Shown here: piece after piece, positions 25,165 to 31,910 of the stretch
How positions within the stretch are numbered: position 1 is the stretch's first letter
Layout: each line of letters opens with the position of its first letter
Assembly: GCA_002842095.1 (NCBI GenBank)
Contig: PHCB01000006.1
Span: forward strand, 3,814 to 67,813
From: a candidate division BRC1 bacterium HGW-BRC1-1
GTDB taxonomy: Bacteria > Sumerlaeota > Sumerlaeia > Sumerlaeales > Sumerlaeaceae
Direction of reading: 5' to 3'
DNA length: 64,000 nt
Notes under the pieces: model-generated
Seen by the model: only the letters and a program-made list of their open reading frames with translations
The model's database searches: none
Told to the model about the DNA's origin: nothing
Program-made: the position numbers and the translations under genes

Positions 25165-25892
25165 TGCCGAAGAAACCCTCCGTTGATTTTACACGTCTTA
25201 AATTTCAAATGATGAAGCCGCTGCTCTTCGAGCCCCAACCCGCACCGACACTTGCGCACCGACACGAAACAGGACTCAAAAACTTGTGTGAAACCGTTCA
25301 TGGGGGAAGAGAGAAGCGACGAAAGCAAACGGCTAAGACCTCGCCCCTTGCGGGCGAAGACCGTTCGCAAGAGAGGCGATGTAGTTCCACGCGAGTCCAG
25401 CCCGCGGTTGGCTTTCACCGATACCTTGTGAACACTTCGGGAGAAAGAAAAACCTGCCCTTGCCACCCGCACCCGCCCGGTTAGAGGCGCGCACATGCGG
25501 CGTCCGAAGTAGCCCTCGTCTTCTCCCCCTGTTATGAACGCCCAGGAGGCAAACCACCTTAAAGAAGCCCGCACACCCGCACGGTGAGGGAACCGTGAGG
25601 CGATTCCGCCGCCCCGAAGGACAACGAAAAGGAACCGGTGGCCAACGAAATCTTTCCGGGAAACCCGAAAAAACCCCGCCGATCAACACCTGCACACCCA
25701 CTAAATCAAGCCAATGGGCGCAACAAACCCGTGCAGGCACCGATATGGTTACTACACCCCCACAGGGCTATTCAACTATTTCAAATAAATCGTAAATAGT
25801 TGGAACTTAAAGCCGGATTTAATCCTCAGCCGAGATTTTTCGTCCAAGCCGAGGGGCATCCAACTCACCCCCGAGAAGCTGTAAAATTCCTG

Positions 25893-25950
25893 CATTTTAT
25901 TATTGACGTCATGGTTATCATGGTGATATCAGAATGATTCCAGAATCATC
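25893..25950 (+). promoter_or_regulatory. Putative promoter/operator region for the SPFH gene: TTGACG then an 18-nt spacer then GATATC-like −10, followed by an imperfect palindrome AGAATGATTCCAGAATCATCATTCT
   Basis: Pattern read directly in the sequence. The −10 match is weak. Confidence 0.25.
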
Positions 25951-25976: not shown

Positions 25977-26867
25977 ATGAACACCGCACCTATTGCCAAT
26001 CATGAAATCTCTGTTAAACCAATCTCGGGTTGGCGAACGCTGCCCTGGGTACTTATCGCCTTCCTTGCCGCTGTGTCTGCCTTCATTTACGGCATCGGCA
26101 TCGAGTCGGTTCTTTTTATCGTCGTCGGCATATTAACCATTTTAGTGGCCGCCGTCGCTTGCGCGGGGTTTGTAATGCTTCCCCCCAATACTGCCGTGGC
26201 GCTGCTGCTTTTTGGGTCCTACCACGGAACCGCCCGCGAAAGCGGATTCTGGTGGGTGAACCCGTTCTACACGAAAAAGGTCGTGTCGCTGCGGCTGCGC
26301 AACCTTAACGGCCCCAAGCTGAAGGTGAACGACAAGGCCGGCAACCCCATCGAAATCGCCTGCGTGGTGGTGTGGAACGTGGAAGACACCTTCGAGGCGC
26401 TCTTCGAGGTGGACGACTACCTCGATTACGTCTCGGTGCAGAGCGAATCCGCCATCCGCCACCTCGCCTCGCAATATCCCTACGATTCGTGGGAGGACGA
26501 CGACATCATATCCCTGCGCGCCAACATCTCTGAGGTTTCAGAGGCTCTGGAAGTGGAACTTCGCGAACGGCTCAGCCGCGCCGGTGTGCGCGTGCACGAG
26601 GCGCGCCTTACGCACCTGGCCTACTCGCCCGAAATCGCTGAAGCAATGCTCCGCCGCCAGCAGGCCGGTGCCATCGTGGCCGCCCGCAAGAAACTGGTGG
26701 AGGGCGCCGTGGGCATGGTGCGCATGGCCCTCGAACAGATCCAGGATGAACACGTAGTGGAGATGGACAACGAACGCAAGGCCGCCATGGTCAGCAACCT
26801 CCTCGTGGTCCTCTGCGGAGAGACCAACGCCCAGCCGGTCATCAACGCCGGCACACTGTATCACTGA
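25977..26867 (+). CDS. SPFH/band-7 (stomatin/HflK/C-like) membrane protein
   Basis: N-terminal TM segment, then an SPFH-like core (…[48 protein letters not shown]…) and a C-terminal helical region. ORF-track start is at 25956; the second ATG (MNTAP) is preferred. Confidence 0.65.
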
Positions 26868-26891
26868 CAGCCGAGGAAAGTACCTGATATC

Positions 26892-27449
26892 ATGCCTTCA
26901 CCAGAAGGAACGCTCATATACGAAGAAACGCAGGGCTTTGGGCAGCGCAGCAACTTTGCGATGCTTCTGCTGGTTGCCCTCTTGATACTCACCGCTGTGC
27001 TTGCCCCCCTCATCGTCATCCTCTATGCCCCACCAGAGGTCCGCCACGAAGCGCAGATAAACGGCATTATTGCCAGCCTCATTACCCTCCTCGGCGGGGT
27101 CATCACCTTTGCCAGCTTGTTTTTCATGCGCATAGAAACACAGGTGCGCACACGCGGCCTGTTTGTGCGCCTGCGCCCACTGCCATGGCGTTTCATAGCC
27201 CCGGACGGCATGGTTGCGCATCAAGCCATTACTTATCGGCCCATGCGCGATTATGGAGTTGGCTACCACCGCAGCCTTCGCAAGAAATGGGTTTGCTTCA
27301 ACGCTTCTGGCAATAGAGGCGTGCGGATCGATCTCGCCGACGGTTCCCACGTTATCATCGGCTCACAATCCCCCGACCGCCTCGCGCGGGCCATCTCGCA
27401 ACTGCGCGGCAGCGATGCCGCCCTCCCCAGGGAGAGGAGCGAACCATGA
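26892..27449 (+). CDS. YdbS-like membrane protein (2 TM plus a C-terminal bacterial PH-like domain), paralog 1
   Basis: Two TM helices followed by a roughly 95-aa domain, RIETQVRTRGLFVRL…IIGSQSPDRLARAISQLRGSDAA. Architecture resembles bPH_2/DUF304 proteins. Confidence 0.45.
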   Translation: MPSPEGTLIYEETQGFGQRSNFAMLLLVALLILTAVLAPLIVILYAPPEVRHEAQINGIIASLITLLGGVITFASLFFMRIETQVRTRGLFVRLRPLPWRFIAPDGMVAHQAITYRPMRDYGVGYHRSLRKKWVCFNASGNRGVRIDLADGSHVIIGSQSPDRLARAISQLRGSDAALPRERSEP

Positions 27450-27979
27450 CACCCCCCGAGGGATCCGCGCTCTATGAGGAAAAACAGCATTTCGGCTGGT
27501 CGATAATGGCAATGGCTGTCGTAGGCGTGTTGGTGGTTACCGTAGTTGCCGCCGTGCTTACCATCAAGCGCGCAGGCCAGGGGTCCGGGCCCATGCCAAC
27601 TGGCGTGATTCTCATGTCATTGGCGCCTTTCGGACTCGTTATTGCCGCCACGCTCCTACCGCTTCTGCTTCGCGTCGAAACACAAGTCCGCACTCGGGGC
27701 CTTTACGTGCGCCTGATGCCCTTCCCGTGGCGTCATGTTCCCGCCAGCGAAATAACCACCCACGAAGCGACCTCGTTCCGCCCCCTTCGCGATTGCGGTG
27801 GTTATGGCATGCACAAGAATTTCCTCACCAAGACCACCAGCTATAACGCCCGGGGCAACCGGGGCGTTCGGATCGAGCTGACCGACGGCAAACGCCTGAT
27901 CATCGGCTCACAAACCCCCGACCGCCTCGCGCGGGCCATCTCGCAACTGCGCGGCAGCGATGCCGCCACCGGCCAATAG
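27446..27979 (+). CDS. YdbS-like membrane protein, paralog 2 (tandem duplicate; ATGA overlap with paralog 1)
   Basis: Same architecture as paralog 1. The last approximately 69 nt of the C-terminal coding region are 98% identical at the DNA level to paralog 1 (27353–27421 versus 27897–27965), while the rest has diverged. Confidence 0.45.
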   Translation: MTPPEGSALYEEKQHFGWSIMAMAVVGVLVVTVVAAVLTIKRAGQGSGPMPTGVILMSLAPFGLVIAATLLPLLLRVETQVRTRGLYVRLMPFPWRHVPASEITTHEATSFRPLRDCGGYGMHKNFLTKTTSYNARGNRGVRIELTDGKRLIIGSQTPDRLARAISQLRGSDAATGQ

Positions 27980-27994
27980 GAGACCCCACCCGTC

Positions 27995-28186
27995 GTGCAG
28001 AAAAAATTCCTCCTGCGAATAAGCCCCAAACTCTACGAACAGCTCGAACGCTGGGCGCAGGAGGAACTCCGCAGCGTCAACGGACAGATAGAATATCTCC
28101 TCCGCGAAGCCGTGCAACGCCACCACCCCACCCAAATCATCGAAGCCACGGAGCCAATCGAGGAAGACGAAGATGTGGATGCTTGA
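27995..28186 (+). CDS. Arc/MetJ-type ribbon-helix-helix DNA-binding protein (63 aa) with an acidic C-terminal tail
   Basis: [36 protein letters not shown] matches the Arc-family RHH pattern (beta strand, then R-S-x-N-x-EI helix). Confidence 0.55.
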
Positions 28187-28323
28187 AAAACTCTCGTGAA
28201 GTAACGACGGGAATTTTACGGCTTAATCCGGTTCGGTTCCATCGCTGGCTTCAGGCCCTGACGCCCTCCTTTTTCATCCCAACTCGGGCGCATGCCAATG
28301 ACTGCGCCTGCCCCCCGACCACC

Positions 28324-28706
28324 TGGGCGGACACACAGGTCCGCCCCTACGATCGGGTCTGGTTTTCCAACAAAGGAATTCGCGTTAATTAGCGTCCATT
28401 AGCGATTCGTTATTCGCCTTGGCGCGGGCTTACGGCACGCATCACGAGAGCGCGGGAATTGGCGCAGGAACGATCGGGGGCAGGAATGCCCCCGCCCCTG
28501 TCAGGAGGAGGACATTCCTTTCCCCCTACCATTCGGTTTGGCGGTGAACGGAACGGTCAAAGAATCCATCTGCGATCATCTGCGCCATCTGCGGATTCAC
28601 TCCGTGGGCACTTGGGCGGACACACAGGTCCGTCCCTAGGATTGGTTTCGGTTTTTCCAACAAAAGAATTCGCGTTTGCGTCCATTTGCGGTTCGTTTGT
28701 TTGCTT
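28324..28706. repeat. Composite intergenic repeat locus A: R4a (28324–28416), R3 hairpin GGGGGCAGGAATGCCCCCGCCCCTGTCA (28476–28503), R2 ATCTGCG heptad triplet (28568–28596) and R4b (28613–28706)
   Basis: R4 is TGGGCGGACACACAGGTCCGCCC (8-bp stem hairpin) …GGTTTTCCAACAAAGGAATTCGCGTT-A-TTAGCGTCCATTAGCG-TTCG. All subelements recur at 32.0–32.25 kb and 33.74–33.94 kb. Confidence 0.75.
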
Positions 28707-28985
28707 CGCGGGCAGAGGAATTACGCAGATTGTCAGCGGGAACCGATTGAATCCTCCATCGGTGGAGCGAAGAAACCCCACGGCGTGTGGTGGCTCCTCA
28801 TCTTTTCTACGCGTCAGGCTTTTAGATCACTTGACTCTACCAATTCTGCCTACGGCGATTTGGCTATTGGGGAAATATGTCGCCACCATTCTTGGTGGTT
28901 GTGCATTTCTTCCCGCAATGAGCGTGGGGGCCGCACCCGCGTTACCCCACCTTTGTGTTCAATCTCATTTTATGGGGAGTCGCGG

Positions 28986-31910
28986 ATGAACAGGATCGTC
29001 TTCTTTTTGGTTGGCGCAATCGCAGCGACGGCCGTTATGACCGCAGCCGCGGCGTCGGTGACGAATGTGCGCGCGAACCAGCGCACGGACGGATCGGCAT
29101 TGGTGGATATTGACTACGATCTGGCGGACGTGACGGCGGTTGCCAGTGTGAGTGTGGAGTTCTCACTCGATGGTGGCACGTCTTACACGGTGGTGCCGTC
29201 CACAACCGCGCTTTCGGGCGATTGCGGCGTAGTGACCTCCAGCGGTTCCAACAAGCGAATCGTCTGGAATGCGGGCGTCGACCAGCCGAGCGTGTACACG
29301 GATCAGTGCCGAGCGCGGGTGAGCGCGTTAAACGCAGGGCAGGTGACGACTATTACCCTCCCGGGCGGCGTGCCCCTGGAGATGGTAGCCATCCCGCCGG
29401 GCAGCTTCCAGATGGGCGCGAACGACGAAAGCATGTGGTCGGGGTGGCCTGAAAGCGAGAAGCCGGTGCATACGGTGACGATCGCCCACGCGTTCCAAAT
29501 GGGCCGGTTCGAGGTGACGCAGAGTCAGTGGCTGGCGGTGATGGGCAGTTGGCCGGATCCGAACTGGCCGCCCACTTCATTATCCGGCGTGGGGGACAAT
29601 TACCCGGTCTATTTTGTGTCGTGGGACCACATCAGTGCTGCCAACGGTTTCCTGAATACGCTGAACGCGCATATTTTCTCGACCGGTCAGGGCCCTGCGA
29701 CGTTCCGGTTGCCATCTGAGGCTGAGTGGGAGTATGCGTGCCGCGCGGGCAGCCAGTCGCGGTTCAGCTTCGGGAACTCGAACTGCACCGATAAAACTGA
29801 CTGCACGACAGGCCGCGATCTGGCGGATTATGCATGGTATTGTGGGTTGGGGACGCCAGCATACAGCACAAAGTCTGTCGGTGGGAAGTTATCCAATGCC
29901 TTCGGTCTGTTCGACATGCATGGCAATGTGTGGGAGTTGTGCGAGGACTGGTATCACTCGTCGTACACGGGAGCGCCGACGGATGGTAGCGCGTGGAACA
30001 GCCCTGCGGGGTCTTACCCGGTGCTACGCGGCGGCAATTGGCTATCAAGTCCGGGGGAGTGCCGCTCGGCCTATCGCAACGCAACCGGCCCGCGCGATCT
30101 CTCCAACGGCTTTGGGTTTCGGTTGTCGCGGACATTGCCTTCGACAGCTGAGGCCTCCTCTCCTGCAGAATCAAACATCTTTGTTTTAGACACGAGGGTT
30201 GTAGGCTCGTTGCAGGTGAGGCTCCTGCCAGCCGCTGCGGTGACGGCAGGCGCGCAATGGCGGCGCACGGCGACTACGACCTGGTTCAGCAGTGACGTCA
30301 CGGAATCCTCCATTCCCATCGGTAACTATCAGGTGGAGTTCAAGGATGTGTCGGATTGGATCACGCCCGCGAACCAGTCTGTCACAATCCAGAACGGAGA
30401 GACGGCGACGGCGACGGCGGAGTACAGCACGAATTACGCTCTGACCTCTGCTGATTTCAACCCCGGAGCCCCTGCTCCGGTACAGCCCGCGTCAATCCTC
30501 GATGTGACATGGTCTGTCAGCGGCACACCTCCGGGAACCATCTGGGCCGAACTATTCTTGTCCAAGACCGGCGGTTTTGATACCTGTCGAGTTGGCGCTA
30601 CGCTTACGAACTCGTCGCGATTCGCCTTCCCTGGTGTTCCAGTGAATCACACTCCGGGCAATCAGGTGGTCAACTATGTTCCCGATGGCGTTTATACCAT
30701 CGTGCCCATGATAAACCGCCCCGACACGGGGGGACCCATAGAGAATAATTACGTTAACAACTGGGCGCCCATCGCCGGAAAACGGGTGCTCATCCGGAAC
30801 AACCAATTTGCAACGTGCGATCTGGCCTGGTCGGGAACTCCCTCGTTCGTGGTTTCCGGCCAGAACGTCAGTGTGTCGGGTACCGTCATCAACCTCAGCG
30901 GCAACACTCCCGCTTACGGCTTCTGGGTTGAAACAATCTACGGCACCTTCTCCGACGAAGGATTGTTCCTTGCGGAAGGCTACATCTCCGGAGGCGAGAA
31001 GGTATCCACGTCGCTGGGCCCCAACGACACGGTGGCCTTCAGCCAATCTGGCATCGCTCCGGCTGGCAAGGACCTCGTGGTGGTGGTCGACTCGACCGAC
31101 ATCATTTCCGAGACCGAAGAACGCAACAACAGTGCTTCTCACCGCGTTTCGACTCCCGTTGGACGTGGCTCGTTGGACCTGACCGTGACGGATGCATCGT
31201 TCTCTGCGGCCCAGCTTGCTCCGACAGAGCTAAGCCCCTTCGGGTCGCTGCAATGGTCCGCCACCATTCGTAATAACAGCACCCAACCCACCGGAGATTT
31301 CTGGGTTGAGCTGTTCCACTCAAATAACGGTGGCATCGGTTCCATGAGATCCGGCATCACCCTCACGCAGTCGGAGAAAGTTTCTCTCGCTGCGTCGGAA
31401 ACCAAGCCGTTTAACTTCAATCAACCCTTCAACCAGATTACCGACGGAATCTATTCGGCGGTGGTGGTTGCCAACCGCAACTCCGTGGGTGTCAATCCCG
31501 GCGACACCAATCCGGCGGACAACAGCTTTGTGCTCCCCGGCCGCGTGGTATTGATCAACTCCACAGCCCCGGTCGCGAACCTTCGCTGGAACGCGGAACC
31601 CGTTGTCACACGAACCGGCAACCTCGTTTCCGTAACAGGTCGGGTGATCAACGATGGTCCCGATGCAACAATCGGTTCCTCATGGGTTGAAGCGTATTAC
31701 GGCACCATGGATGTGGCCGGGCGTTACTCCCCACTAAACGTGGTGGCGGGCGGCGTCCTGGTGCCTCCGCTGGCGGGCGGAGAAGGCTACGATATCGCCA
31801 TCAACGGTGGCGTCCTCAGCGGCAACTGGGTAGTGGGCGTCATTATAGATTCAACCGATCTCGTGCCTGAAACCGACGAAACCGATAACTACACGTATCA
31901 ACCGAATTAA
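28986..31910 (+). CDS. Large secreted protein (974 aa): signal peptide, Ig-like domain, FGE-sulfatase (SUMF1/DUF323) domain, then multiple CARDB-like beta-sandwich repeats
   Basis: ATG at 28986 with GGGGAG Shine-Dalgarno sequence (ORF-track start at 28686 lies in the repeat). FGE signature RLPSEAEWEYACRAG…DMHGNVWELCEDWY…LRGGNW…GFRLSR. C-terminal repeats end in the CARDB-like motifs ETEERNNS and ETDETDNYTYQPN. Confidence 0.7.
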   Translation: MNRIVFFLVGAIAATAVMTAAAASVTNVRANQRTDGSALVDIDYDLADVTAVASVSVEFSLDGGTSYTVVPSTTALSGDCGVVTSSGSNKRIVWNAGVDQPSVYTDQCRARVSALNAGQVTTITLPGGVPLEMVAIPPGSFQMGANDESMWSGWPESEKPVHTVTIAHAFQMGRFEVTQSQWLAVMGSWPDPNWPPTSLSGVGDNYPVYFVSWDHISAANGFLNTLNAHIFSTGQGPATFRLPSEAEWEYACRAGSQSRFSFGNSNCTDKTDCTTGRDLADYAWYCGLGTPAYSTKSVGGKLSNAFGLFDMHGNVWELCEDWYHSSYTGAPTDGSAWNSPAGSYPVLRGGNWLSSPGECRSAYRNATGPRDLSNGFGFRLSRTLPSTAEASSPAESNIFVLDTRVVGSLQVRLLPAAAVTAGAQWRRTATTTWFSSDVTESSIPIGNYQVEFKDVSDWITPANQSVTIQNGETATATAEYSTNYALTSADFNPGAPAPVQPASILDVTWSVSGTPPGTIWAELFLSKTGGFDTCRVGATLTNSSRFAFPGVPVNHTPGNQVVNYVPDGVYTIVPMINRPDTGGPIENNYVNNWAPIAGKRVLIRNNQFATCDLAWSGTPSFVVSGQNVSVSGTVINLSGNTPAYGFWVETIYGTFSDEGLFLAEGYISGGEKVSTSLGPNDTVAFSQSGIAPAGKDLVVVVDSTDIISETEERNNSASHRVSTPVGRGSLDLTVTDASFSAAQLAPTELSPFGSLQWSATIRNNSTQPTGDFWVELFHSNNGGIGSMRSGITLTQSEKVSLAASETKPFNFNQPFNQITDGIYSAVVVANRNSVGVNPGDTNPADNSFVLPGRVVLINSTAPVANLRWNAEPVVTRTGNLVSVTGRVINDGPDATIGSSWVEAYYGTMDVAGRYSPLNVVAGGVLVPPLAGGEGYDIAINGGVLSGNWVVGVIIDSTDLVPETDETDNYTYQPN

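What the first reader, a model, noticed from the sequence alone, without database searches (positions are those of the whole stretch)
25977..28186. SPFH protein plus two tandem YdbS-like PH-domain membrane paralogs with a gene-conversion signature, plus an Arc-type RHH regulator
A four-gene same-strand cluster. The two paralogs overlap by ATGA and share a 69-nt stretch (27353–27421 versus 27897–27965) with a single mismatch, while the remainder has diverged to about 60% identity. That pattern indicates recent gene conversion or selection on a nucleotide-level element at the 3' end. SPFH/NfeD-like pairings are known, but an SPFH, two bPH proteins and an RHH protein together form an unusual module.
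Basis: partly seen in the sequence, partly recalled or inferred. Interest (0 to 1): 0.5.

Follow-up and report, generated by a model that had tools for sequence, protein, structure and literature searches.

The report
Autoregulated SPFH operon with converted PH-domain paralogs
Two old, diverged tandem copies of a membrane-anchored PH-fold gene share an identical 69-base tail through gene conversion, and they sit in a widespread but undescribed operon made of a membrane scaffold (SPFH) gene and a small repressor gene with a conserved operator.

Summary
A 27354-27422 and B 27899-27967 match at 68/69 nt; the rest of the two genes is 54% identical.

It is not a recent duplication. Outside the block A and B share 36-39% of residues and form sister clades. 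It is not an RNA element either: fold z-scores are about 0, Rfam gives no hit, and single-copy orthologues are only 78-81% identical there.

It is gene conversion, B to A. In the block, window A is 98.6% identical to B but 89.9% to its own orthologue, against 97.4% over the rest of the gene. All 22 shared residues in the block use identical codons, against 27/54 elsewhere.

- **The module:** it recurs. This SPFH subfamily is followed by the RHH_5 gene in 73 of 77 assessable metagenome loci, and also in Bacillus, Deinococcus and Verrucomicrobiota. In 12 of those 73 loci a 2TM+PH gene (bPH_5 or DUF6141-like) lies between them.
- **The operator:** TATCA-N3-TGATA lies upstream of the SPFH gene in 64/72 loci and overlaps the window's promoter. 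This points to autorepression by the RHH protein.

Found in passing: a conserved, structured ~640-nt non-coding region upstream of tuf.

The parts
25903..25932 (+). Candidate promoter of the operon: -35 TTGACG (25903-25908), 18-nt spacer, extended -10 TGaTATCAG (25924-25932)
   Evidence: Read directly from the sequence. TTGAC and the GTGATATCAG stretch are conserved in L005, L006, L119 and L121, while the ~90 nt upstream are not. The generic promoter scan did not list it, so the assignment is an inference.
25916..25939 (.). Candidate RHH operator: two overlapping 13-bp palindromes 11 bp apart, TATCAtggTGATA (25916-25928) and TATCAgaaTGATT (25927-25939)
   Evidence: TATCA-N3-TGATA (at most 1 mismatch) occurs within ~20-120 nt (a few up to ~250 nt) upstream of the SPFH start in 64 of 72 homologous loci, often as two copies 11 nt apart. 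About 106 occurrences were counted in ~400 kb of loci, nearly all of them in these upstream regions. It is also present in Bacillus thuringiensis and Deinococcus geothermalis. These two sites are the only ones in the 64-kb window.
25977..26867 (+). SPFH/Band_7 membrane protein, 296 aa, with an N-terminal hydrophobic hairpin (~residues 23-68) and the conserved C-terminus ...[13 protein letters not shown]
   Evidence: Pfam Band_7 E 3.8e-21, 76.4 bits. More than 8000 homologues were found, with 59-91% identity among those listed. No PDB sequence relative at E<=1e-3.
26892..27449 (+). Paralog A: 2-TM plus PH-like protein, 185 aa, the divergent copy and the recipient of the conversion
   Evidence: 43% aa identity to B overall and 36% outside the C-terminal block. 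Sub-threshold DUF6141, 20.3 bits. An orthologue exists only in L006. dN/dS 0.38 against L006.
27354..27422 (+). Converted tract in A, encoding IIGSQSPDRLARAISQLRGSDAA (last beta-strand plus C-terminal helix)
   Evidence: 68/69 identical to B. It is 98.6% identical to B but 89.9% to its orthologue L6A, against 97.4% for the rest of the gene.
27446..27979 (+). Paralog B: 2-TM plus PH-like protein, 177 aa, orthologue of the single-copy gene in relatives and the donor of the conversion
27899..27967 (+). Donor copy of the tract in B
   Evidence: 100% identical to the B orthologue of L006 over these 69 nt.
27995..28186 (+). RHH_5 (Arc/CopG-type) protein, 63 aa, with an acidic C-terminal tail; the proposed autorepressor
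   Evidence: Pfam RHH_5 E 7e-9, 35.7 bits against a cut-off of 26. Homologues lie downstream of the SPFH gene on the same strand in 73 of 77 assessable metagenome loci.

Best explanation
The locus is one operon, SPFH - PH-A - PH-B - RHH, in a Sumerlaeota (BRC1) genome.

**Core unit.** The core, conserved across phyla, is an SPFH membrane-scaffold gene followed by a small RHH_5 gene. I propose that the RHH protein is the autorepressor. It would bind two TATCA-N3-TGATA palindromes set 11 bp apart, which overlap the spacer and extended -10 of the operon promoter.

**Middle slot.** Between scaffold and repressor is a slot. In a minority of lineages it holds a membrane protein with a 2-TM hairpin and a cytoplasmic PH-like domain, either DUF6141-like or bPH_5. 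I infer that this protein is an accessory or client of the SPFH assembly, in the place NfeD occupies in other SPFH operons.

**The paralogs.** In the window's lineage the slot gene exists as two old paralogs. The 69-nt identity at their 3' ends results from non-reciprocal recombination (gene conversion) from B into A. It covers the last beta-strand and the C-terminal helix of the PH domain. At least its 3' 24 nt were converted after the split from the L006 lineage.

**Status of each step.**
- Shown: gene content, PH-like fold, conserved SPFH-RHH linkage, conserved palindrome, conversion signature.
- Inferred: DNA binding by the RHH, repression, physical association of the PH proteins with SPFH, and any selective value of keeping the helix identical.
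For: **Conversion**
- 68/69 nt identical against 53.6% elsewhere.
- 22/22 identical codons in the block against 27/54 outside it.
- In the block winA is 98.6% identical to B but 89.9% to its orthologue L6A; the rest of A is 97.4% identical to L6A.
- Six differences fall in the last 24 nt of winA against L6A. At 2.6% divergence, P = 5e-5.
- winB and L6B are identical across the block, so the B state is ancestral. L6A keeps the Ile seen in outgroup B-type genes.
- A and B are sister clades with 36-39% identity outside the block.
- Both copies are under purifying selection, with omega 0.38 and 0.31.

**Fold**

**Module**
- Among the 80 metagenome loci, the RHH gene is adjacent to SPFH in 53 and separated by inserted gene(s) in 20. 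It is absent in 4 loci that have at least 300 nt of downstream sequence, and 3 loci have too little downstream sequence to assess.
- The inserts are 2-TM proteins of ~170-230 aa. They are bPH_5 in 9 loci and DUF6141-like in others.
- The same three-gene order occurs in Congregicoccus parvus and in another Sumerlaeota genome, each in an unrelated genomic context.
- The pair is annotated in Bacillus thuringiensis and Deinococcus geothermalis.

**Operator**
- The palindrome is found in 64/72 loci, and these are the only two sites in the 64-kb window.
Against: - Nothing here tests DNA binding, co-transcription or protein-protein contact.
- The DUF6141-like family as a whole is not linked to SPFH. 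In Isosphaeraceae it follows proS and an AP_endonuc_2 gene. None of the 24 genome loci fetched with the family carried an SPFH or RHH homologue within 5 kb. The association therefore holds only for one clade of the family.
- The conversion history rests on a single sister genome that carries both paralogs (L006).
- The 5' 45 nt of the block are already identical to B in L6A, so their timing and direction cannot be resolved.
- Homogenisation of the helix may be neutral, with conversion simply seeded in the best-conserved stretch.
Confidence: 0.75

Rival explanations
1. The 69-nt block is held constant by selection on a nucleotide-level element. Candidates are an RNA structure, an internal promoter, or a translational-coupling signal for the next gene. 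In both copies the block ends 23-27 nt before the next start codon.
For: Both copies lie just upstream of the next gene's ribosome-binding site and start. A small GC hairpin (GGCAGCGAUGCC) is predicted at the 3' end of the block.
Against: - Fold z-scores are +0.37, +0.30 and +0.09 for the block on either strand, and -0.39 and 0.01 when extended to the next start codon.
- No Rfam hit at E<=1.
- Single-copy orthologues, which also precede the RHH gene, are only 78-81% identical in the block with synonymous differences, and 57% in L121.
- L6A differs at 6 of the last 24 nt.
Confidence: 0.05
2. The identity is left over from a very recent tandem duplication of the whole gene, with the rest of the gene diverging quickly afterwards.
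For: The genes are tandem and overlap by ATGA. A and B are each other's closest relatives after a few near homologues.
Against: - Outside the block, nucleotide identity is ~50% and aa identity is 36-39%, lower than B against its orthologues in other species (62-66%).
- The A clade branches outside the whole B clade.
- A is 97% identical between the window and L006, so it is not evolving explosively.
Confidence: 0.03
3. The SPFH-RHH pair is a toxin-antitoxin-like or defence cassette, with the RHH acting as an antitoxin. RefSeq names the Bacillus homologue 'HicB family antitoxin'. On this reading the PH proteins are effectors or sensors.
For: - RefSeq annotation of the RHH homologue.
- Weaker Pfam hits to ParD_like and HicB.
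- The RHH has an acidic, probably disordered tail like many antitoxins.
- The family is patchy across phyla and occurs on some plasmids and phage-labelled contigs.
Against: - There is no HicA or other toxin domain.
- PADLOC gives no hit for SPFH or the PH proteins, and only a chance-level Csm6 hit for the RHH.
- In the window the operon sits next to tuf and the ribosomal protein genes, a position kept in relatives.
- The C-terminal tail is not conserved among RHH homologues; most domain matches end near residue 45-56 and the Bacillus protein is 54 aa.
Confidence: 0.1

Closest known systems
SPFH-NfeD operons (stomatin-like SPFH1, flotillin SPFH2 and YqfA-type SPFH5; Hinderhofer et al. 2009, PMC2636767)
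   Same: A Band_7 scaffold gene is co-transcribed with a small membrane-anchored accessory protein that has a beta-rich soluble domain. The operon structure is conserved across phyla.
   Different: There is no NfeD here; Pfam gives no NfeD hit on A or B. The invariant partner is a cytoplasmic RHH DNA-binding protein. The membrane accessory is optional and has a PH-like fold. According to that paper, subfamilies 3, 4 and 6-12 have no identified partner.
YdbS/YdbT-type bacterial PH proteins (Pfam bPH_2/DUF304; members of the sigma-W regulon; DdE/DdF in enterocin DD14 export, PMC8657885)
   Same: An N-terminal transmembrane hairpin is followed by a PH-like domain ending in a C-terminal helix. Tandem paralogous pairs occur, as with ydbS-ydbT. 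These points are from my own knowledge and from the titles listed.
   Different: A and B give no bPH_2 hit at E<=1. The only Pfam signal is sub-threshold DUF6141. There is also an extra N-terminal strand before TM1.
Arc/Mnt/CopG ribbon-helix-helix autorepressors (for example CopG of pMV158, PMC2724298)
   Same: A repressor of about 45-60 aa is encoded in the operon it controls. The palindromic operator has half-sites one helical turn apart and overlaps the promoter.
   Different: The regulated genes encode a chromosomal membrane-scaffold module, not plasmid replication or phage functions. Binding has not been tested. The operator consensus TATCA-N3-TGATA is derived here.
Ectopic gene conversion between tandem bacterial paralogs (for example tufA/tufB and rRNA operons; my own knowledge)
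   Same: A short tract of near-identity, including synonymous sites, lies inside otherwise diverged paralogs. The tract groups by genome rather than by orthology.
   Different: The tract is very short (69 nt) and confined to the 3' end of paralogs that are otherwise only about 50% identical.

Membership tests
SPFH / Band_7 (PF01145) | Pfam Band_7 match above the gathering score | tested here: met
   76.4 bits against a cut-off of 23.6, residues 69-239.
SPFH / Band_7 (PF01145) | NfeD partner gene in the operon (defines subfamilies SPFH1, 2 and 5) | tested here: not met
   None of the three downstream proteins gives an NfeD hit. The partner is an RHH.
bPH_2 / YdbS-like (PF03703) | Sequence match to the bPH_2 profile | tested here: not met
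   No bPH_2 hit for A or B at E<=1. NCBIfam gives nothing relevant.
bPH_2 / YdbS-like (PF03703) | Two N-terminal TM helices followed by a PH-like beta-sandwich capped by a C-terminal helix | tested here: met
DUF6141 (PF19638) | Pfam match above the gathering score of 27 bits | tested here: inconclusive
   A scores 20.3 bits and B 24.6 bits, both full-length but below the cut-off. Some homologues carry a precomputed PF19638 hit: P0072, P0090 and the L035/L036 gene.
RHH_5 / Arc-MetJ superfamily repressor | Pfam RHH match above the gathering score | tested here: met
   RHH_5 scores 35.7 bits against a cut-off of 26.
RHH_5 / Arc-MetJ superfamily repressor | Repeated or palindromic operator at the promoter of its own operon | tested here: met
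   TATCA-N3-TGATA is present in 64/72 loci, often as two copies 11 nt apart, and the window's sites are unique within it.
RHH_5 / Arc-MetJ superfamily repressor | Sequence-specific DNA binding and repression | not testable with these tools
   This needs EMSA, footprinting and reporter assays.
Type II toxin-antitoxin (HicAB-like) | Adjacent toxin gene (HicA or another known toxin fold) | tested here: not met
   Pfam and PADLOC find no toxin domain in SPFH, A or B.
Gene conversion tract | Synonymous sites homogenised inside the tract but not outside it | tested here: met
   22/22 identical codons inside against 27/54 outside.
Gene conversion tract | Phylogenetic incongruence: the tract groups paralogs within a genome, while the flanks group orthologues | tested here: met
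   In the block winA is 98.6% identical to B and 89.9% to L6A; in the flank winA is 97.4% identical to L6A and 53% to B.
Structured cis-regulatory RNA in the 69-nt block | Thermodynamic stability beyond shuffled controls, or a match to a known family | tested here: not met
   z-scores from +0.37 to -0.39. No Rfam match.

The most novel reading that the evidence does not exclude
The SPFH-RHH pair would be an undescribed, phylum-spanning, self-regulating membrane module. It would have a 'cargo slot' between scaffold and repressor that has independently recruited two membrane PH-domain families with no detectable sequence similarity (bPH_5 and DUF6141-like), and occasionally DUF1648 or other membrane proteins. 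On this reading PH-domain hairpin proteins are the functional counterpart of NfeD for an NfeD-less SPFH subfamily. The RHH might couple the assembly or stress state of the membrane complex to transcription, for example by being sequestered at the membrane as in SdpI-SdpR. The homogenised C-terminal helix would then be the shared docking surface of the two paralogs.
Probability: 0.2. Interest if true: 0.6.

Novelty: new variant of a known kind. Interest (0 to 1): 0.4.

Why it matters
Bacterial SPFH proteins are widespread, but most have no known partner or phenotype, and NfeD is the only recognised operon partner. This analysis gives three testable leads.

- **Regulator and operator.** It identifies a candidate dedicated regulator and a consensus operator for a large SPFH subfamily. 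That subfamily also occurs in tractable bacteria such as the Bacillus cereus group and Deinococcus; matches were also seen on contigs labelled as Listeria and Enterococcus phages.
- **Accessory proteins.** Membrane PH-domain proteins recur as accessories of this SPFH subfamily.
- **Annotation.** The automated label 'HicB family antitoxin' on the RHH partner is probably misleading.

The gene conversion itself is an ordinary evolutionary process. It does mark the C-terminal helix of the PH domain as the part the two paralogs keep in common.

Tried and rejected
- **bPH_2/DUF304 assignment.** Pfam gives no hit and NCBIfam gives nothing useful.
- **Defence-system membership.** PADLOC returns nothing for SPFH or the PH proteins.
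- **PDB sequence relatives.** None for the PH family profile, SPFH or RHH.
- **AFDB50 fold search.** The library was unavailable.
- **RNA element in the block.** Rejected from the fold z-scores and Rfam.
- **Family-wide link between DUF6141-like proteins and SPFH/RHH.** It is absent in 24 genome loci and three Isosphaeraceae loci.
- **Homology between the DUF6141-like and bPH_5 slot proteins.** hhalign probability is 5%, so they are treated as separate families sharing a fold.
- **Literature.** No paper in the library links SPFH with an RHH, Arc, CopG or HicB partner, or with bPH proteins, and none mentions DUF6141.
- **Generic promoter scan.** It did not list the promoter proposed here.
- **First chaining of downstream ORFs.** It was too noisy in high-GC loci and was replaced by HMM-based placement of the RHH.
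Full report
**Source and gene content**

The window comes from candidate division BRC1 (Sumerlaeota) bacterium HGW-BRC1-1, by the name a source gives to the identical protein. Four plus-strand genes sit between the divergently oriented tuf/S10 ribosomal cluster and a large FGE-sulfatase/CARDB gene:
- SPFH, 25977-26867
- paralog A, 26892-27449
- paralog B, 27446-27979 (ATGA overlap with A)
- RHH, 27995-28186

The gaps between genes are 24, -4 and 15 nt. No convincing terminator lies between them, so an operon is likely. This is an inference.

**Check of the observation**

The correct pair is 27354-27422 against 27899-27967, with 68/69 identical. The rest of the two genes is 53.6% identical. A run this long never appeared in 20,000 simulations, where the maximum was 31.

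All 22 residues shared in the block use the same codon. Outside the block only 27 of 54 shared residues do.

The locus is base-identical in three of the four independent assemblies (L001, L003, L004). The fourth (L002) encodes the identical B protein, but an apparent indel in its SPFH gene confounded the DNA comparison.

**Origin of the block**

Two relatives are decisive.
- L005 keeps the same neighbourhood but has a single B-type gene.
- L006 has both A and B.

Outside the block, window A is 97.4% identical to L6A and about 53% to either B. Inside the block it is 98.6% identical to B and only 89.9% to L6A.

winB and L6B are identical across the block, so that sequence was already in the B gene of their common ancestor. 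L6A differs from winA at six of the last 24 nt (P = 5e-5 at the gene's 2.6% divergence). L6A also keeps the Ile codon seen in outgroup B-type genes.

The simplest reading is a B-to-A conversion in the window's lineage. The 5' 45 nt of the block are already shared by all four genes, so an older or recurrent exchange is likely there.

A distance tree puts the A clade outside the whole B clade, and aa identity outside the block is 36-39%. The paralogs are therefore old, and a recent whole-gene duplication is excluded. Both copies are under purifying selection, with omega 0.38 and 0.31.

**No RNA or nucleotide-level element**

- The block folds no better than shuffled sequence on either strand, alone or extended to the next start codon.
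- Rfam finds nothing.
- Single-copy orthologues, which also precede the RHH gene, are 78-81% identical in the block with synonymous differences, and 57% in the more distant L121.

**What the paralogs are**

Pfam gives only sub-threshold, full-length DUF6141 matches and no bPH_2 match.

The converted block encodes the last strand and that C-terminal helix.

The family is large, with 4801 clusters at 50% identity. Some sources call members 'YdbS with pleckstrin-like domain'.

**The module**

Searching from the PH family, the link to SPFH is not general.
- Isosphaeraceae homologues follow proS and an AP_endonuc_2 gene.
- None of 24 genome loci from many phyla has an SPFH or RHH homologue within 5 kb.

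Searching from SPFH gives a different picture. This SPFH subfamily has the conserved C-terminus ...NAQPV[VI]NAGTLY and more than 8000 homologues. It is almost always followed, on the same strand, by an RHH_5 gene.

Among the 80 metagenome loci:

| Arrangement | Loci |
|---|---|
| RHH directly adjacent (gap mostly 8-25 nt) | 53 |
| Gene(s) inserted between SPFH and RHH | 20 |
| No RHH despite at least 300 nt downstream | 4 |
| Too little downstream sequence to assess | 3 |

The usual insert is one 2-TM protein of ~170-230 aa.
- It is bPH_5 in L037, L039, L041, L043, L050, L052, L057 and L062 by Pfam. L058 was placed with them by alignment only.
- It is DUF6141-like in L036, L069, L090, L095 and L102.

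The two groups show no profile-profile similarity. Rarer inserts are DUF1648 membrane proteins, small TM proteins and a hydrolase.

Congregicoccus parvus (Verrucomicrobiota) has Band_7 - bPH_5 - RHH_5. Another Sumerlaeota genome has Band_7 - DUF6141 - RHH_5. Both sit in unrelated genomic contexts.

The bare pair is annotated in Bacillus thuringiensis, where the RHH is named 'HicB family antitoxin', and in Deinococcus geothermalis, where it is 'hypothetical'.

SPFH-linked DUF6141-like proteins form their own clade.

**Regulation**

Upstream of the SPFH start, the only stretch conserved among relatives is TTGAC...TATCAnnnTGATATCAG. I read it as -35 TTGACG (25903-08), an 18-nt spacer, and an extended -10 TGaTATCAG (25924-32).

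Two palindromes 11 bp apart overlap this promoter: TATCAtggTGATA (25916-28) and TATCAgaaTGATT (25927-39). The arms are conserved and the 3-nt spacers vary.

The same motif (at most 1 mismatch) lies upstream of the SPFH gene in 64 of 72 loci, often doubled at 11-nt spacing, and is rare elsewhere in those loci. It is also present in Bacillus and Deinococcus. The window's two sites are its only ones.

The RHH is the only DNA-binding protein in the operon and its only invariant partner. I therefore propose it is the autorepressor that binds this operator. That is an inference.

**Proposed mechanism and confidence**

- Gene conversion B to A: about 0.85.
- Autoregulated SPFH-RHH operon: about 0.7.
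- PH proteins acting as accessories of the SPFH assembly, analogous to NfeD: about 0.4.

Predicted topology places the SPFH domain, the PH domains and the RHH all in the cytoplasm. This follows from hairpin anchors and the charge distribution read, and is an inference.

Whether the identical helix is selected (a shared docking or oligomerisation surface) or is a neutral by-product of conversion seeded in the best-conserved stretch cannot be decided here.

**Comparison with what is known**

Hinderhofer et al. (PMC2636767) define 12 prokaryotic SPFH subfamilies. They find NfeD partners only for SPFH1, 2 and 5, and report that subfamilies 6-12 contain no documented members.

I found no paper in the library that links SPFH to an RHH partner or to bPH proteins, and none that mentions DUF6141.

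The locus is therefore a new variant of known kinds: an SPFH accessory operon, an RHH autorepressor, and ectopic gene conversion. It is not a new category.

**Noticed in passing: the tuf-SPFH intergenic region**

The ~640 nt between tuf and the SPFH promoter (25165 to about 25810) are about 95% identical between the window and L005. The whole aligned stretch, which is mostly coding, averages 88%, and gene B is 72%.

- The region carries 1-nt and 6-nt indels, so it is not coding.
- It is recognisable in the more distant L119 and L121.
- It folds significantly only on the minus (tuf) strand: z = -3.9 against -0.04 on the plus strand.
- In an RNAalifold consensus, 14 of 109 pairs show compensatory changes, and one hairpin is deleted in L119.
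- It has no tRNA and no Rfam match; the only Rfam row is 12.8 bits at E 6.5.

It is probably a long structured leader of the tuf-S10 operon, or a separate RNA.

Noticed in passing
window 25165-25810, minus strand (homologous: L005 4246-4892, L006 4274-4916, L119 2-418, L121 3-333): A ~640-nt non-coding region between tuf and the SPFH promoter is more conserved than the flanking genes. It is ~95% identical to L005, with 1-nt and 6-nt indels. It folds significantly only on the tuf strand (z -3.9 against -0.04). In a 5-sequence consensus, 14 of 109 pairs show compensatory changes. It has no tRNA and no Rfam match. It is a candidate long structured leader of the tuf-S10 operon, or a new RNA.
   Followed up: partly
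window 25936-25949: A further perfect palindrome, TGATTCcaGAATCA, lies just downstream of the proposed operator, near the expected transcription start. It is conserved in L006 and L119, is 5/6 in L005, and is not seen in L121. Its role is unknown.
   Followed up: no
window 25977-28186 vs L006 5087-7295: Synonymous divergence between the window and L006 is uneven across the operon: dS is 0.32 for SPFH, 0.09 for A, 0.13 for B and 0.17 for the RHH. This could reflect recombination between lineages within the operon.
   Followed up: no
L087 2152-2658, L090 5033-5509, L069 4356-7004: In some SPFH-RHH operons the slot between the two genes holds other membrane proteins: DUF1648 four-TM proteins, small TM proteins and an alpha/beta hydrolase. 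In L069 and L090 these occur together with a DUF6141-like gene.
   Followed up: partly
L007, L009, L010 (Isosphaeraceae), gene at 4001-4534/4543: The Planctomycete branch of the DUF6141-like family sits in a conserved, different context. It directly follows proS and an AP_endonuc_2 (TIM-barrel) gene with a 2-nt gap, and has no SPFH or RHH nearby.
   Followed up: partly
L122 3249-3413 (Bacillus thuringiensis NZ_CP151870.1): RefSeq names the RHH partner of the SPFH gene 'toxin-antitoxin system HicB family antitoxin', although no HicA gene is adjacent. The label is probably a misannotation that has been propagated.
   Followed up: partly
window 28186-31910 vs L005 6741-9609: The region downstream of the RHH gene varies between relatives. 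The window has a ~500-nt gap and then a 974-aa FGE-sulfatase/CARDB protein. L005 has an Ice_binding/CARDB protein in that position.
   Followed up: no
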